Assembly (NCBI RefSeq): GCF_013167455.1
Contig: NZ_CP038328.1
Length of the DNA stretch: 64,000 nt
Direction: 5' to 3' (one strand)
Source of the DNA: Escherichia coli O157:H7
GTDB lineage: Bacteria > Pseudomonadota > Gammaproteobacteria > Enterobacterales > Enterobacteriaceae
This document shows positions 12,001-21,000 of this stretch, in pieces; the stretch's first letter is position 1, and every line of letters begins with the position of its first letter. The position numbers are program-made.

Positions 12001-15000
12001 TCCTTACTTAAATTTATCATCGCCACTAACGTTTTCCTTATTGATGCTATTCATTTTGGACATGCAGATCACTTTTGATGACTCACGGAATATCAGCAAA
12101 AATGATTGCGGCAAATCCTATCACCTGGCGCAATAAAAAATCACGAAAAATAAGCTGAAATAAGGACTCAAAAAAACAACTAAGAGTTATTGTTTTTTCA
12201 TCGAACGGCGAAGAACCTAACTTACTAAAACACAATAATTTAAAAGTCCCCCATCCTTGCTCCTTGGGTGAAAAAAATCCAATTTAGAGGACGTCTGAAA
12301 TGATATGTAGTTTTCTGTACGACATCATTTCAGACATCCGAATAAAACAACAAAGTTGGTGAGTTACAATTAATTTAAATCTTATTATTTGATTAACAAA
12401 GCATCATCATTACTGCATCTTATTCTCTATATCTTTTACGTCGGGGTAGATTCTTTATGGTCATTACGGGCAGGCGACATTTCATTATATTACCATTTGC
12501 ATTCACGCATGTAACCCTTAAGAGTTATATAAAAAGGAAAGAGTTCTTGCTCATGGTATTACTGAGATCGGATTAACCATGAGGTTAGCTATATAGAGAG
12601 CTTTGGCTTTGCGACAATTGGCTTAAGCAGCCACATTATGCCTGGCTTATCGTTGAAAGGGAGAAAGAAGAGCAAAACGGTTTGGCAAGCTTTCATTCCC
12701 ATCTAATAGCAATCACCGCTATACATCATCCCTTAACGTATTCTGGTCTTCATAAAAATGTTATTCTAAATTAAAGATTGTAATGATTTTAATAATGTTG
12801 TTATTATTTTGCAACAAATCAATCTAACACAATGATTATTCGCGATTTTTATTAGTTAAGAGGAATTGTTTTTACAGATTGCGCTACAATTCCGCTCATT
12901 TCTCACCACAGGAAAAGCTGAAGTAATCTTAAATGACTGTATTAACCCTTTTCTCCGCTGCCAGCACTCTTAAATATCGTTGTTTTATTCTTATAAAAAC
13001 GGCTTTTTTGACATAAAAAGTAATAGGTTCAGCCATTATGCAGAATTTACAACCTGAGAAAATCGCAAAAAACACTCTTATTCAGAATAAAACTCTGTTT
13101 ATCATCTTTCGGCAAGCATTAAATTACTATATTACCGTTCAACATTAGTATGAATGAAAATTCAATTGTTATACATGTGATGAATGTCATATATTGTGCT
13201 CATCGATTGCAGGACATCGCTATTCTTTTAGAGATACAGATATCACGCTGTTACTCTCTAATATAAAGAACACGCAAAGATTAGTTGTGTTACTGCAGTT
13301 GTTATGTCGCATATGGAATGCCCATTGTTACATCTTTAGTAAAAAGCTTTATTCACTTTCAAAATTTTTACTCCATGAAGATGGGCTGTTTTGCTGCAAG
13401 CAATTGAGTTAGTGCAATGAACAAGAACTTACTAACAAGGGTAATTATCATTTCGGATGATCTATATTACCTTCAGGGATTAAGTGCAAAACTAGGTCAC
13501 CATTATCGTTTTTTTATTGAGTGTTTTTTTTGTTCTCAAAATGCATGCAATAATGACCTAAGTACACTTAGATTTGACAACCGCTTTACAAAAAACGTAC
13601 TTCTTGTCGCAGTGGATGACGTAAGTATACTTGCAAAACTGCCAGATTTGGCCAGGTTTTTAATGATTGTTTCACTAAGAAAGATGAAAAACAGAAATAT
13701 CTTCTTTTCACTTTCAGAGCAAACATTCATTAGCCGATATATAAAATTGAATAAACTCATTACTTTGATTAAAAGTACTGATAAAGACCAGCAAGTCAGG
13801 CAGGTGACTCTGACAAGGTATGAGTGGGATATCTATTACTTATATTTTAAGATAGATAACAAAAGAATATTGCACACCCTGCTAAAAAAGGATGTCAAGT
13901 ATATTAGTCACTATAAAATATCAGTTTTTAACAAGTTTGAAATTGCTTGTGATAGTGATGGCTTTTACATTTTCAAGGCACTTATACAGTTAAGGAGATT
14001 TACCGGTTTTAAAAACGTCAGATTGTATCAATTGCATTAATTAACTCGTTCTATATTAACTCTAAATTTCAAGGATATTAATATGTTTTCTACTTTCAAA
14101 AAAGCAGCTCTGCTGGCAGCTATTGCATTACCTTTTTCAACTATGGCTGCGCCTACAGTCACTTTTCAGGGTGAAGTAACCGATCAGACCTGTTCCGTAA
14201 ATATCAACGGTCAAACCAATTCAGTAGTATTGATGCCGACCGTAGCCATGGCTGACTTCGGTGCAACTTTAGCTGATGGTCAGAGCGCAGGCCAGACGCC
14301 GTTTACGGTTTCTGTGTCTAACTGCCAGGCTCCAACTGGTGCAGATCAGGCAATCAACACCACCTTCCTGGGCTACGACGTTGACGCTAGCACGGGTGTT
14401 ATGGGAAACCGTGATACCAGCAGCGATGCGGCGAAAGGCTTTGGCATTCAGTTAATGGATTCCAGCACTTCTGGTAACCCAGTAACTCTGGCTGGCGCGA
14501 CTAACGTACCGGGTCTGACCCTGAAAGTTGGCGATACCGAAGCCAGCTACGACTTCGGTGCGCGTTACTTCGTTATCGATAGCGCTGCTGCCACTGCCGG
14601 TAAAATTACCGCTGTCGCAGAATACACCCTGAGCTACCTCTAATTAATCTACTGGCTGGCAGTAAATGCCAGCCAGTATTTCTTCGCACAATTAATAGTG
14701 ATTTTTCATGGACATGGAAAAGATAAGAATGAACATTTTTGCATATTTACTGGTACTTGTATTTTCCATGAGCATGAGCAGCAGCGCGTTTGCCAGCGTG
14801 GTAATGACCGGAACCCGTATTATTTTCCCTGGTGACGCAAAGGAAAAAACCATCCAGTTGCGAAATACCAGCGATCAGCCCTATATCATTAATATCCATG
14901 TTGAGGATGAACGTGGTTCTGACAAGAATGTACCGTTTATGCCAACCCCGCAGACATTTCGCATGGAAGCTGCCGCAGGTCAGGCGTTACGCCTGCTCTA

Positions 15001-18000: not shown

Positions 18001-21000
18001 CTTGATACAGAGAAAACCCGATGTCTAAATCGACTTTTTTACACATTCTGATTAGCTCCATCATATTGGTGGCACTAATACAATCATCCGCTTGGGCTAA
18101 CTGTACAAACACACAGATAGGTCAAACTGAAGATGGTCGGACAGCGCTTATTGAGTTCGGAAAAATTAATATGACCGACACCTATTTTGCGCCAGCAGGT
18201 TCACTCCTCGCGACAACGGTCGTACCTCCCACTAACTACACATCAGGTGGCGCGACAGGAAGCTCCGTATTGTGGGAATGTGATGCAACAGATTTGCCAA
18301 ACATCTATTTTCTGGTCGCTACCAATGGCGACGACCGCGTGGGGGGCTTTTACGATGCAGGCGGGCCTGATGGTCTGAGTGATGTCTATGCCACCTGGTT
18401 CGCTTTTGTCGGTCTCAAGCAGACCATGGCGGGCGTGACGCTTGGTCGTTACTGGAAGAAAGTGCCCATCACCAGTTATGCCACTCAGGGAACTAAAATC
18501 CAGATTCGCTTACAGGATATCCCTCCTCTTCATGCTGAGCTTTATCGCATCAGTACGCTACCTGATACATCAGCAACAACAAGTTGGTGCGGTAATAATA
18601 ATACAGATAGTAGTGGAGTCGGATTCGCAAAACCTTCCGGTACAATCTATAACTGTGTTCAGCCCAATGCCTATATTCAGCTTTCCGGTACCAGCGGCAT
18701 TTTATTTGGTCATGATGAGCCCGGCGAAGATAGTTCTGTTCATTGGGATTTCTGGGGTGCTGATAATGGTTTTGGTTACGGAATGCGTTCGGCCAATCGA
18801 CTCTACAACAATGCCACCTGCGTTGCCCGCAGCGCCACGCCGTTAGTATTGCTGCCGACAATTGCAGAAGCACAACTGAATGCGGGCATGGAAAGTACCG
18901 GTAATTTTAATGTCCGCGTCGAGTGTAGTAACTCGGTTCAATCAGGGATTAGCGATACTCAGACAGCATTAGGAATCCAGGTGTCTGAAGGTGCATATAC
19001 AGCGGCGCAAAAACTGGGGATTATCAATAGCAACGGCGGCGTCAGCGCCCTGGTCTCTGATAATTATGACGCAGCAGAGATGGCAAAGGGCGTTGGGATC
19101 TACATTTCTAACAGTGCTCACCCCGATACGGCGATGACGCTGGTTGGTCAACCGGGCATCGCGAAGTTAACCCCCGGAGGAAATGCAGCGGGGTGGTATC
19201 CTGTATTTGAAGGGGCAACATTAGAAGGTGCGACTCACCCCGGATACTCCAGCTATAGTTACTCTTTTATCGCCCGGTTGAAGAAACTGCCAAATCAGAC
19301 AGTCAGTGCGGGAAAAGTGCGGGCAACGGCTTATATATTGGTGAAAATGCAATGAAATCCGTTTTGCTGCTCTTAACCATCTTGTTCGTACAGTCAGTGG
19401 AAGCCGGCATCATGCCGGCTTCTTCACGGATTATTTATCGCGATGGCGATCGGGAAAAGACACTGATGCTGGTCAATACCAATGACTATCCGGTACTGGT
19501 GCAAAGTTGGGTAGATAATGGTGAAGGTTCCCCAGAAGCTGCTTCTCCCCCCTTTGTGGTGCTGCCACCGGTTTTCCGCCTGGCTGCGAGACGAACCCAG
19601 GGGTTGCGGATTATCTATAATCATGACCCACTTCCCCAGGATCGCGAATCTGCATTCTGGTTAAATCTTTATGAAATGCCGCCAGAAACTCCCCATCAAG
19701 ATCCCACACATTTAACGCTGGCAATGAATACGCAACTTAAAATCTTTTACAGGCCAAAATCTGTAACTATGACGCCCCAAGAAGCTATGCGTAAAATAAG
19801 TTGGCATCTGGGTAACGACGGCAGCAGTAGCTATATTGAGCTTAATAACCCAACACCACTGAATATCTCTTTCACCTCCATCAGCATTGGGGCTACAAAG
19901 GTGCAGCAAGAAAGCGATATGATGATAAAACCCTTCAGTCAACGACGGTACTGGTTAGCAAGTAATAACGTTAGTGGTGTGGTTGCGGCGACATATCTCG
20001 ATGATAATGGTGCACAGATAAAACAACAATTAGCGCAATAATGCTCTGAGTGGTATGTAAACTCATCGCGATGGTTCAACGCTAACGAATAACCACTATA
20101 CCCACCTGAAGTACCGGAAGTGGAGAAATGACAAAATCTCTCCACTCCATTTTCCAGTCAAAACACCTCAACGCAGCCAAAAATCGTTAACGAATTGAAT
20201 ATCCACCATCAATGACTAATAGTTGTCCATTGACATAATCTGAAGCGGCACTGGCGAGGAACACCATTGCGCCCATAAGATCCTGTGCCCTTCCCCAGCG
20301 TTGAGCCGGTATACGCCCTTTTATTAACTCTTTTATTTTAGGGTTATTATAAATAATAGCGGTCATTTCACTCACATAATATCCTGGGGCGATACCATTA
20401 ATCTGAATATTATATTCCGCAAAATCATCGGCATACGCTTTGGTCAGCCCCGCTAAAGCATGTTTAGTCGCCGCATACCCTGGCGACCAACGTCCCCCAT
20501 GAAATGACAATACGGAACACATATTAATAATTTTCCCTTTTCTTTGCGGGACAAATATATTCAATGCGGCCTGGCTCATATCGAATGCAGCATTCAGGTT
20601 GAGATTAATCATCGGATCCCAGTCGTTTCGATTGAAATCGATAGGACGATTAATGTTACACACGCCCGCGTTATTGACCAGAATATCTAACTGACCGAAA
20701 CGCTCCAGACACCTATTAATAATGGTGCATGATGCATCAGGTTTTGTTATGTCTATTGTCATAAACTCAACTTCAACGCCTTCATGAGTTAAATGCTTCA
20801 AATATCTATTATCAGGCTCTTTGATGTCAACCAACAATAGATTAGCCCCTGCTTTGGCCAGAGCCGAGCATAAGCCTCTCCCCAGCTCACCCGCGGCCCC
20901 AGTTACGATGGCCACCTTGTTATGTAATGAAAAAAAATCCAATGAAAAATCTTCAATAGAAAAGCTCATATCACACATTGCTCCTTATGAGTAAGTAATA

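What the first reader, a model, noticed from the sequence alone, without database searches (positions are those of the whole stretch)
13417..20041. Chaperone-usher fimbrial operon with two chaperones, a large adhesin-like subunit and its own LuxR-type regulator
The order is regulator, pilin, chaperone, usher, 444-aa subunit, second chaperone. A second chaperone translationally coupled to the adhesin gene suggests a dedicated adhesin chaperone. The LuxR-like regulator is extremely AT-rich and its N-terminus looks like a degenerate receiver.
Basis: partly seen in the sequence, partly recalled or inferred. Interest (0 to 1): 0.5.

Follow-up and report, generated by a model that had tools for sequence, protein, structure and literature searches.

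The report
Known O157 Loc6 fimbrial operon
This is the already catalogued but functionally uncharacterised "Loc6 / type 3-like" fimbrial operon of E. coli O157:H7 genomic island OI-47; the only new point is that the unannotated gene in front of it looks like a very divergent LuxR/FixJ-type regulator that cannot be phosphorylated.

Summary
All six ORFs are present exactly as described. The window is E. coli O157:H7 O-island 47. The five structural genes are the published Loc6 ("type 3-like", gamma4 clade) chaperone-usher operon, whose function is unknown.

The gene order pilin, chaperone, usher, ~440-aa subunit, second chaperone is a widespread five-gene cassette. I found it in Pseudomonas, Acinetobacter, Proteus and Klebsiella. 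The two chaperones form separate, ancient orthologous clades.

The 207-aa AT-rich ORF has no Pfam or NCBIfam hit and is annotated "hypothetical". Three lines support a LuxR/FixJ fold:
- Profile-profile comparison with RcsB, FimZ, MatA and YqeH gives E = 8.6e-10.
- An AlphaFold model retrieves RcsB, EvgA, FixJ and NarL.
- An invariant Ala sits at the aligned phospho-acceptor position.

The ORF is under strong purifying selection (11 synonymous versus 1 non-synonymous change between E. coli lineages), so it is not a pseudogene.

Regulation of the operon by this protein, and adhesin-specificity of the second chaperone, remain inferences. Verdict: observation confirmed, interpretation essentially right, locus already known, low-to-moderate interest.

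The parts
12027..13416 (.). AT-rich 1.39-kb non-coding spacer between otpA and the regulator gene. It is the presumed promoter and silencing region.
   Evidence: GC is 0.339. There is no Rfam match. Promoter-like sites are not above chance, 16 found versus 15.4 expected. There is no EAL-gene remnant by tblastn. The spacer is 91% identical between E. coli lineages, against about 98% for the flanking genes.
13417..14040 (+). 207-aa divergent LuxR/FixJ-type putative transcription regulator with a non-phosphorylatable receiver-like N-domain. RefSeq calls it WP_001039007.1, 'hypothetical protein'.
   Evidence: hhalign against RcsB, FimZ, MatA, YqeH and two GerE proteins gives Prob 96.5%, E 8.6e-10. 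The AlphaFold model has pLDDT 84. Foldseek top hits are EvgA, RcsB, FixJ and NarL. dN/dS is 0.02 within E. coli. Pfam and NCBIfam are negative.
14083..14643 (+). Major pilin, 186 aa. It has a signal peptide, an N-terminal donor strand (APTVTFQGEV) and a C-terminal ...EYTLSYL.
   Evidence: NCBIfam fimbrial-subunit models reach E 3e-14. The 90%-identical orthologue carries Pfam Fimbrial. The sequence was read.
14650..14678 (+). Perfect 12-bp stem-loop with a T-rich tail directly after the pilin gene. It is a likely intra-operon attenuator or mRNA stabiliser that sets pilin excess.
   Evidence: Terminator scan. Folding energy is -24.8 kcal/mol with z = -6.2. A hairpin at the same position, with a different sequence, occurs in all six related loci folded.
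14729..15430 (+). Periplasmic PapD-like chaperone 1. PGAP uses the start at 14729; the longest ORF starts at 14708.
   Evidence: NCBIfam chaperone models reach E 1.7e-49. The orthologue has PapD_N plus PapC-type PapD_C. It falls in the chaperone-1 orthologous clade. IS1203 interrupts it in some O157 strains.
15483..18005 (+). [not shown]
   Evidence: NCBIfam PRK15248 scores E 4e-211, 703 bits. The orthologue has PapC_N, Usher and PapC_C. Wurpel 2013 supplement classifies it as gamma4 'Type 3-like'.
18021..19355 (+). 444-aa two-domain tip-adhesin-like subunit. Residues ~27-262 form the receptor-binding domain and 263-444 the pilin domain. There is no N-terminal donor strand.
19352..20041 (+). 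Periplasmic PapD-like chaperone 2. Its start overlaps the adhesin stop (ATGA).
   Evidence: NCBIfam chaperone models reach E 9e-45. The overlap was read. It falls in a separate orthologous clade conserved in Pseudomonas, Acinetobacter, Proteus and Klebsiella.

Best explanation
The region is the Loc6 ('type 3-like', gamma4) chaperone-usher fimbrial operon of E. coli O157:H7 O-island 47, together with an upstream gene that earlier descriptions left out.

**Shown**
- The five structural genes encode a Sec-exported major pilin with a donor strand, a PapD-like chaperone, an usher, a 444-aa subunit predicted to be an N-terminal receptor-binding domain fused to a pilin domain, and a second PapD-like chaperone whose start codon overlaps the adhesin stop.
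- This five-gene cassette is conserved across Gammaproteobacteria.
- The two chaperones are ancient paralogues, each kept as its own orthologous lineage.
- The upstream 207-aa AT-rich ORF is a real gene under purifying selection.
- Its family aligns with NarL/FixJ/LuxR-type regulators over both domains, with an invariant alanine at the aligned phospho-acceptor position.

**Inferred**
- The AT-rich spacer and regulator gene are silenced by H-NS, as are other cryptic E. coli fimbriae.
- The LuxR-like protein acts without phosphorylation as a local activator or anti-silencer, in the manner of EcpR/MatA. MatA is the first gene of the ecp operon and works as a heterodimer with RcsB.
- The regulator is probably co-transcribed with the pilin gene, which lies only 42 bp downstream with no terminator between.
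- The hairpin after the pilin gene gives pilin excess.
- Chaperone 1 serves the pilin and chaperone 2 serves the adhesin.
- The adhesin primes assembly at the usher and ends up at the tip.
For: **Identity of the locus**
- 100% match to O157:H7 chromosomes; some part is present in 401 of 5426 complete E. coli genomes.
- The neighbours are those of OI-47: a two-partner-secretion (TPS) gene pair (otpAB), an SDR gene, the GrvA-type regulator, an EAL gene, dgcT and pgaA.

**Structural genes**
- NCBIfam and Pfam assignments.
- Cassette conserved in four other genera.
- Chaperone tree: ch1-ch1 39-52% identity between genera, ch2-ch2 40-46%, ch1-ch2 within a locus 28-41%.
- Adhesin/chaperone-2 overlap present in 5 of 6 loci.
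- Hairpin after the pilin gene and its positional conservation.

**Regulator**
- hhalign E 8.6e-10; RcsB alone gives E 5.7e-4 in the HTH register.
- Foldseek top 30 hits are almost all NarL/FixJ regulators, with RcsB TM about 0.5.
- 11 of 12 substitutions between E. coli lineages are synonymous, P = 2e-7 under neutrality.
- pN 0.26 versus pS 0.79, with the 207-codon length kept, against a more distant homologue.
- Distant family members also sit directly upstream of fimbrial operons.

**Precedents**
- MatA-RcsB activation of a fimbrial operon, and H-NS repression of such auxiliary regulators.
- Non-redundant paired chaperones in CupB.
Against: - No experiment links the 207-aa protein to this operon.
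- Pfam GerE reaches only E = 0.03 in 2 of 11 family members. No annotated LuxR protein was reached by sequence searches of 5.8 and 1.8 billion proteins.
- One homologue (L006/L007) has no fimbrial operon beside it.
- The regulator has a weak Shine-Dalgarno sequence.
- A Loc6 deletion had no effect on spinach-root binding. IS insertions and deletions of the locus occur in some O157 and O145:H28 strains, so the fimbriae may rarely be used.
- Chaperone specificity is inferred only from gene order and phylogeny.
- The adhesin's putative receptor-binding domain is more conserved across genera than its pilin domain. This is atypical for a host-specific lectin.
Confidence: 0.8

Rival explanations
1. 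The 207-aa protein is a LuxR-like factor, but it is not the operon's own regulator. It belongs to the wider OI-47 regulatory network (GrvA, the YqeJ-like protein, the EAL phosphodiesterase), or it acts on distant targets such as flagellar or LEE genes. MatA acts on flhDC in this way.
For: A homologue occurs with an EAL gene and a ToxR-like/YqeJ-like pair but without fimbriae (L006/L007). OI-47 carries the same cast of regulators. Deleting OI-47 raises type III secretion.
Against: In the window and in loci L002-L005, L008, L009 and L019 the gene lies immediately upstream of, and on the same strand as, a pilin gene. In the window the gap is only 42 bp and holds no terminator.
Confidence: 0.25
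2. The two chaperones are functionally redundant, or the second serves something other than the adhesin. For example, it could assist the pilin at low temperature or cap subunits. The start/stop overlap would then be only compact gene packing.
For: Both keep the conserved Arg and Lys subunit-anchoring residues and the typical F1/G1 motifs (sequences). In locus L005 the second chaperone precedes the large subunit rather than following it. L008 has a related fimbrial operon with only one chaperone.
Against: Both paralogues have been kept as distinct orthologous clades from Acinetobacter and Pseudomonas to E. coli. The overlap with the adhesin gene is conserved in 5 of 6 loci. CupB2 and CupB4 give a precedent for non-redundant roles.
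Confidence: 0.3
3. The locus is a cryptic, effectively unused remnant in O157:H7. It is silenced and contributes nothing to the phenotype.
For: The control region is AT-rich. No phenotype was seen on spinach roots. IS1203 disrupts chaperone 1 in some strains. The locus is partly deleted in O145:H28. Cryptic E. coli fimbriae are commonly H-NS repressed.
Confidence: 0.3

Closest known systems
E. coli O157:H7 Loc6 (Low et al. 2006), also called 'Type 3-like' fimbriae (Wurpel et al. 2013), in O-island 47 / S-loop 71
   Different: Published definitions cover only the five structural genes. The upstream 207-aa gene is not included and is annotated 'hypothetical protein'.
Salmonella enterica Stb fimbriae (stbABCDE)
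   Same: The best-scoring NCBIfam models for the usher (PRK15248) and for the 444-aa subunit (StbD, PRK15247) come from this system. The gene order pilin, chaperone, usher, large subunit, second chaperone is the same; this last point is from established knowledge and was not re-derived here.
   Different: All scores fall well below the equivalog cut-offs: 703 versus 996 bits, 114 versus 363 bits, and 122 or 108 versus 550 bits. It is therefore a paralogous system, not an orthologue. The NCBIfam product name 'fimbrial usher protein StbD' is a misnomer, because the protein has a Fimbrial subunit domain.
Pseudomonas aeruginosa CupA (cupA1-A5 plus the EAL gene PA2133)
   Same: The operon has the same five-gene order (from established knowledge) and is linked to a c-di-GMP phosphodiesterase gene; one search shows that cupA1-A5 and PA2133 are treated as one gene set. 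A Pseudomonas citronellolis cassette has an adhesin 58% identical to this one.
   Different: No direct comparison with PAO1 CupA4 and CupA5 was made. The only P. aeruginosa structure match is a 659-aa entry at 27% identity. CupA uses different regulators.
Klebsiella type 3 (Mrk) fimbriae
   Different: Mrk has one chaperone, a smaller adhesin and an extra minor subunit, MrkF. Sequence identity to the MrkD domain is 13%.
EcpR/MatA and other RcsB auxiliary LuxR-type regulators (BglJ, RcsA)
   Same: They are small LuxR/FixJ-type proteins without a working phospho-acceptor, H-NS repressed, and MatA is encoded as the first gene of a fimbrial operon that it activates. The recognition-helix pattern K-x-I-S-x-x-K...K-L is shared with RcsB.
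   Different: Pairwise similarity to MatA is insignificant (E 0.051). No interaction with RcsB has been tested. The family has only about 20 clusters, all in Enterobacteriaceae.
P. aeruginosa CupB two-chaperone system (CupB2/CupB4)
   Same: Two PapD-like chaperones in one operon have different, non-redundant client sets. The CupB6 tip adhesin is a structural match to the adhesin model.
   Different: CupB includes a TpsA-like passenger and a POTRA-bearing usher inside the operon. Here a two-partner-secretion (TPS) pair, otpAB, is only a neighbour on the other strand.

Membership tests
Classical chaperone-usher fimbriae | Outer-membrane usher with PapC_N, Usher and PapC_C domains | tested here: met
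   NCBIfam usher models reach E 4e-211 over residues 31-839. The 88%-identical orthologue carries all three Pfam domains.
Classical chaperone-usher fimbriae | PapD-like periplasmic chaperone with the conserved Arg (A1 strand) and Lys (G1 strand) | tested here: met
   Both chaperones hit 20 NCBIfam chaperone models. The motifs TRIIF/SRIIY and RVKIFYRP/QLKIFYRP are read directly from the translations.
Classical chaperone-usher fimbriae | Pilin with an N-terminal donor strand and a Fimbrial (incomplete Ig) domain | tested here: met
   The mature N-terminus is APTVTFQGEVTDQTC and the C-terminus is ...YTLSYL. The pilin hits NCBIfam fimbrial-subunit models. Pfam Fimbrial is found in the orthologue.
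Two-domain tip adhesins (FimH / MrkD / CupB6 type) | N-terminal receptor-binding beta-sandwich plus a C-terminal pilin domain, with no donor strand | tested here: met
   [not shown]
gamma4 clade (usher phylogeny of Nuccio and Baumler) | The usher groups with gamma4 ushers in a phylogeny | not tested
   [not shown]
Salmonella Stb fimbriae (orthologue) | Scores above the NCBIfam equivalog cut-offs for StbB, the Stb usher and StbD | tested here: not met
   Scores are 122 and 108 bits versus 550, 703 versus 996, and 114 versus 363.
LuxR/FixJ (NarL) family transcription regulators | C-terminal tetrahelical GerE-type helix-turn-helix | tested here: met
   The Pfam GerE threshold is not reached: best E 0.03, in 2 of 11 members. 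Profile-profile alignment covers the HTH with Prob 96.5% and E 8.6e-10. The model has four C-terminal helices at 134-196. Foldseek retrieves RcsB, EvgA, FixJ and NarL at probability 0.96-1.0. DNA binding was not tested.
Canonical two-component response regulators | Receiver domain with a phospho-acceptor Asp at the end of beta3 | tested here: not met
   In the hhalign alignment RcsB Asp56 pairs with Ala65, which is invariant in all 11 family members. Helices alpha2 and alpha4 are missing from the model.
Canonical two-component response regulators | Cognate histidine kinase encoded nearby | tested here: not met
   No kinase is among the annotated neighbours within 9 kb on either side. In contrast, the Pseudomonas cassette sits next to a canonical RR-GerE protein and a hybrid kinase.
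c-di-GMP-binding LuxR-type regulators (VpsT type) | W[F/L/M][T/S]R motif and c-di-GMP binding | not testable with these tools
   Only circumstantial evidence exists. VpsT appears among the Foldseek hits at rank 45. EAL genes directly precede distant homologues. The conserved F/V-x-S/N-R107 segment is not aligned to the VpsT motif position.

The most novel reading that the evidence does not exclude
The 207-aa protein may found an unannotated, Enterobacteriaceae-restricted family of phosphorylation-independent LuxR/FixJ-like switches.

The family travels with an EAL phosphodiesterase gene and a ToxR-like/YqeJ-like (GrvA-type) gene pair. It may couple c-di-GMP level, or RcsB partnership, to de-silencing of gamma-type fimbriae.

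In O157:H7 this would tie Loc6 fimbriae to the known GrvA and EAL-phosphodiesterase virulence and biofilm circuitry of OI-47.
Probability: 0.2. Interest if true: 0.5.

Novelty: already known. Interest (0 to 1): 0.25.

Why it matters
The operon is one of the few O157:H7-lineage-specific fimbrial loci. It sits in an island that already encodes a known virulence regulator (GrvA). No function is known for it.

A credible fold assignment for its upstream gene gives a practical handle. Inducing that gene is the obvious way to switch on a normally silent operon and finally see the fimbriae.

Two further observations give testable hypotheses for the much larger Stb/CupA-type family, where the role of the second chaperone is still open:
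- The two chaperones are ancient, separately conserved paralogues.
- The adhesin's receptor-binding domain is unusually conserved across genera, yet it has been replaced by recombination within E. coli.

None of this changes current understanding of chaperone-usher systems.

Tried and rejected
- **Standard family searches on the 207-aa protein.** Pfam and NCBIfam gave no usable hit. A PDB sequence-profile search gave only a non-significant RcsB C-terminal-domain match, E 0.43.
- **Large homologue searches.** Searches of 5.8 billion and 1.8 billion proteins returned only about 20 related clusters. All were 'hypothetical', with no Pfam domain and no bridge to annotated LuxR proteins.
- **Single-template hhalign.** Comparisons with YqeH, MatA and FimZ were marginal (E 0.015-0.05). 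Only the alignment-to-alignment comparison was decisive.
- **PDB sequence search with the adhesin family profile.** No hits.
- **Rfam on 11900-21700.** Nothing found.
- **Promoter scan.** Counts were no higher than in shuffled sequence, so no promoter is assigned.
- **tblastn for a decayed EAL gene upstream of the regulator.** None was found. The EAL homology maps only to the separate EAL gene at 23067-24677.
- **Literature.** Low et al. 2006 is not in the held library. Elpers and Hensel 2020 did not include Loc6. The locus-tag search was mostly noise.
- **VpsT-type c-di-GMP motif.** I considered reading one into the conserved FISR segment. I rejected it as unsupported, because the alignment places the segment at a different position.

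
Full report
**Observation**

| Coordinates | Product |
|---|---|
| 13417-14040 | 207 aa |
| 14083-14643 | 186 aa |
| 14708 or 14729-15430 | 240 or 233 aa |
| 15483-18005 | 840 aa |
| 18021-19355 | 444 aa |
| 19352-20041 | 229 aa |

- The 444-aa gene and the last gene overlap in the sequence ATGA.
- The first gene has GC 0.319 and the 1.39-kb spacer in front of it has GC 0.339. The structural genes have GC 0.46-0.51.
- NCBIfam assigns a fimbrial subunit, two chaperones, an usher and an StbD-like subunit.
- Pfam places a Fimbrial domain at residues 263-444 of the 444-aa protein.

**Identity of the locus**

- A megablast of 13000-20200 is 100% identical to many E. coli O157:H7 chromosomes. 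It finds the region, in whole or in part, in 401 of 5426 complete E. coli genomes.
- The annotated neighbours are a filamentous-haemagglutinin-like two-partner-secretion (TPS) protein with its transporter (otpAB), a fatty-acid/ACP gene set, an SDR gene, a winged-helix regulator followed by a YqeJ_C protein, an EAL protein, dgcT and pgaA.
- This is O-island 47, z1528-z1556. The winged-helix gene at 21657-22469 is GrvA, the known ToxR-family regulator of LEE and acid resistance.
- The five structural genes are the published 'Loc6' cluster, ECs1276-1280. Its deletion did not change binding to spinach roots. Its usher or outer-membrane gene was reported induced by lettuce lysate and at 14 C.
- The operon is therefore already known, though uncharacterised.

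**The five-gene cassette**

- Relatives of the 444-aa protein are numerous and strikingly conserved. Full-length identity is 52-68% in Serratia, Klebsiella, Pluralibacter, Proteus, Providencia, Erwinia, Pseudomonas, Acinetobacter, Aeromonas and Dyella.
- In Pseudomonas citronellolis, Acinetobacter ihumii, Proteus mirabilis and a Klebsiella contig, the gene sits in the same order: pilin, chaperone, usher, ~430-445-aa subunit, second chaperone.
- The large subunit and the second chaperone overlap by 4 nt in four loci and by 1 nt in one, out of six examined.
- The best curated matches are the Salmonella Stb models, but every score is far below the equivalog cut-off. This is a paralogous system of the same architecture, not an Stb orthologue.
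- The architecture also matches P. aeruginosa cupA1-A5 (from established knowledge). The literature treats the EAL gene PA2133 as part of the cupA gene set.

**The two chaperones**

- A distance tree of twelve chaperones from six loci separates all first chaperones from all second chaperones.
- Identity between genera is 39-52% within clade 1 and 40-46% within clade 2.
- The two chaperones of one locus share only 28-41%.
- The duplication therefore predates the spread of the cassette, and both copies have been kept. This argues against simple redundancy.
- Both copies retain the conserved Arg and Lys anchoring residues (read).
- Combined with the conserved overlap with the adhesin gene and the CupB2/CupB4 precedent for non-redundant chaperones, a dedicated adhesin chaperone is the most economical reading. 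It remains an inference.

**The 444-aa subunit**

- An AlphaFold model built on 53 homologues has mean pLDDT 91.2.
  - Whole tip adhesins (CupB6, LpfD, FimH) and pilin domains (FimA and FimI 10.5, FimH pilin domain 9.8, PapA, PapE).
- The mature N-terminus starts at a conserved Cys without a donor strand.
- Conserved cysteines suggest three disulfides (C28/C87, C190/C212, C267/C302). The pairings are my inference.
- This fits a two-domain tip adhesin.

Two unexpected points about this subunit:
- Across genera the N-terminal domain is more conserved than the pilin domain (66% versus 59% mean identity). This is the reverse of what is usual for host-specific lectins.
- Within E. coli the N-terminal domain carries a divergent allele in non-O157 strains. 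Synonymous divergence is 0.50 against a background of about 0.09, and amino-acid identity is 87% versus 98% for the pilin domain. This is the signature of a recombinational replacement.

**The 207-aa gene**

Routine tools find nothing:
- No Pfam or NCBIfam family.
- Annotated 'hypothetical protein' in the RefSeq records inspected.
- Only about 20 related protein clusters in two very large databases, all from Enterobacteriaceae and none with a domain.

It is nevertheless a real gene:
- Against E. coli strain 32F4 it differs at 12 positions, 11 of them synonymous. dN/dS is 0.02, and the probability under neutrality is 2e-7.
- Against a much more distant syntenic homologue it keeps exactly 207 codons, with pN 0.26 against a saturated pS of 0.79. 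This is similar to the neighbouring functional regulator grvA.

The fold assignment rests on two independent lines:
- *Profile-profile comparison.* The 11-member family alignment was compared with an alignment of RcsB, FimZ, YqeH, MatA and two GerE-domain proteins taken from the Pseudomonas and Klebsiella cassettes. The result is probability 96.5% and E 8.6e-10 over 167 columns, running from the first beta strand to the end of the helix-turn-helix. RcsB alone gives E 5.7e-4 in the same register.
- *Structure prediction.* An AlphaFold model (pLDDT 84) shows a five-stranded alpha/beta N-domain and four C-terminal helices. Its Foldseek hits in the PDB are almost exclusively full-length NarL/FixJ regulators: EvgA, RcsB with TM about 0.5, FixJ, StyR, NarL, VraR and VpsT.

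The receiver is degenerate:
- In the alignment, the phospho-acceptor Asp56 of RcsB pairs with Ala65, which is invariant in the family.
- Helices alpha2 and alpha4 of a normal receiver are missing from the model.
- No kinase gene is nearby.

**Context of the regulator family**

- Distant members (23-32% identity) lie directly upstream of a different gamma-type fimbrial operon. They are themselves directly preceded by a ~256-aa EAL gene, with a divergent ToxR-like plus YqeJ-like gene pair further upstream.
- One variant has the EAL gene and the ToxR-like/YqeJ-like pair but no fimbriae.
- OI-47 contains the same cast in another arrangement: GrvA plus a YqeJ_C protein at 21657-22965, and an EAL protein at 23067-24677. 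Homology is only remote (24-26% identity).
- The Pseudomonas cassette sits next to a canonical RR-GerE regulator, a hybrid kinase and an RR-EAL protein. The Klebsiella cassette is followed by a GerE protein.
- LuxR-type regulators and c-di-GMP phosphodiesterases are therefore recurrent companions of these fimbriae.

**Most likely mechanism**

*Shown:* gene content, domain architecture, conservation, selection, and the strong hairpin immediately after the pilin gene. The hairpin has 12 bp, -24.8 kcal/mol and z = -6.2. A hairpin occurs at the same position in all six related loci despite unrelated sequences.

*Inferred:*
- The AT-rich control region and regulator gene are H-NS silenced.
- The LuxR-like protein, independent of phosphorylation, relieves silencing and activates the operon. 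It is probably co-transcribed with the pilin gene (42-bp gap, no terminator), giving positive feedback.
- This is the EcpR/MatA model: an H-NS-repressed LuxR-type first gene of a fimbrial operon that acts as a heterodimer with RcsB.
- The hairpin raises the ratio of pilin to assembly proteins.
- Chaperone 1 handles the pilin and chaperone 2 the adhesin. The adhesin initiates assembly at the usher and forms the tip.

**Counter-evidence and limits**

- No experiment ties the regulator to the operon.
- Standard domain thresholds are not met.
- A Loc6 mutant had no phenotype on spinach roots.
- Some O157 strains carry IS1203 in the first chaperone gene, and O145:H28 strains retain only fragments. 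The fimbriae are therefore dispensable in some lineages.
- The promoter scan was uninformative, and no RNA family was detected.

**Verdict**

- The locus is already in the literature under two names.
- The incremental findings here are:
  - the fold-level annotation of the upstream gene and evidence that it is functional;
  - the ancient split of the two chaperones;
  - the unusual conservation pattern of the adhesin.
- Interest is low to moderate.

Noticed in passing
window 18099-18806 (adhesin residues 27-262): Across genera the putative receptor-binding domain is more conserved than the pilin domain (66% versus 59% mean identity). Within E. coli, about 48 genomes carry a divergent N-domain allele: dS is 0.50 against a background of about 0.09, and 31 of the 35 amino-acid differences fall in residues 27-262 (18 of them at 184-243). 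This looks like a recombinational swap.
   Followed up: partly
window 14729-15430 and 15483-18005; locus L018 2138-3351: IS1203/IS629 interrupts the first chaperone gene in some O157:H7 strains. At least four genomes show the gene split in two. Other strains appear to carry an insertion in the usher gene (two usher features annotated). O145:H28 strains retain only fragments of the locus.
   Followed up: partly
L008 5435-13864, L009, L005, L006/L007; window 21657-24677: There is a recurrent module in Enterobacter-like contigs: a YqeJ-like gene and a ToxR-like gene (divergent), then an EAL gene, then the LuxR-like gene, then a fimbrial operon. OI-47 holds remotely homologous versions of every member (GrvA, a YqeJ_C protein, an EAL protein) in a different arrangement.
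   Followed up: partly
window 6506-12026 (- strand): The two-partner secretion pair otpAB lies divergently next to the operon. The transporter ORF is an intact 539 aa in this window, but is annotated as a pseudogene with an internal stop in strain FDAARGOS_293. Literature has speculated that otpA is accessory to Loc6.
   Followed up: no
window 21657-22469: grvA is an intact 270-codon ORF here. In strain FDAARGOS_293 it is annotated as frameshifted (812 nt instead of 813).
   Followed up: no
window 14650-14678; L002, L012, L013, L014, L015, L008 pilin-chaperone spacers: A strong stem-loop directly after the major pilin gene is conserved in position, but not in sequence, in every related locus folded.
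   Followed up: yes
window 12027-13416: The 1.39-kb AT-rich spacer is less conserved between E. coli lineages (91%) than the flanking genes (about 98%). It contains a 72-codon TTG-initiated ORF (13194-13412) that is probably spurious.
   Followed up: partly
L012 10037-17299; L015 10122-10733: In Pseudomonas citronellolis the same fimbrial cassette is flanked by a canonical RR-GerE regulator, a hybrid histidine kinase and an RR-EAL protein (a Roc-like system). In Klebsiella a 203-aa GerE protein follows the second chaperone.
   Followed up: no
window 664-6144 (- strand): This is a gene set for an acyl carrier protein, a FabZ-like dehydratase, an SDR, a holo-ACP synthase and an aminomethyltransferase-family protein. 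It is part of OI-47, lies upstream of otpB, and has no known function.
   Followed up: no
NCBIfam NF011783 (hit to window 18021-19355): The curated product name 'fimbrial usher protein StbD' is a misnomer. The family is a Fimbrial-domain subunit, not an usher, and the name has propagated into UniProt/AFDB entries.
   Followed up: partly
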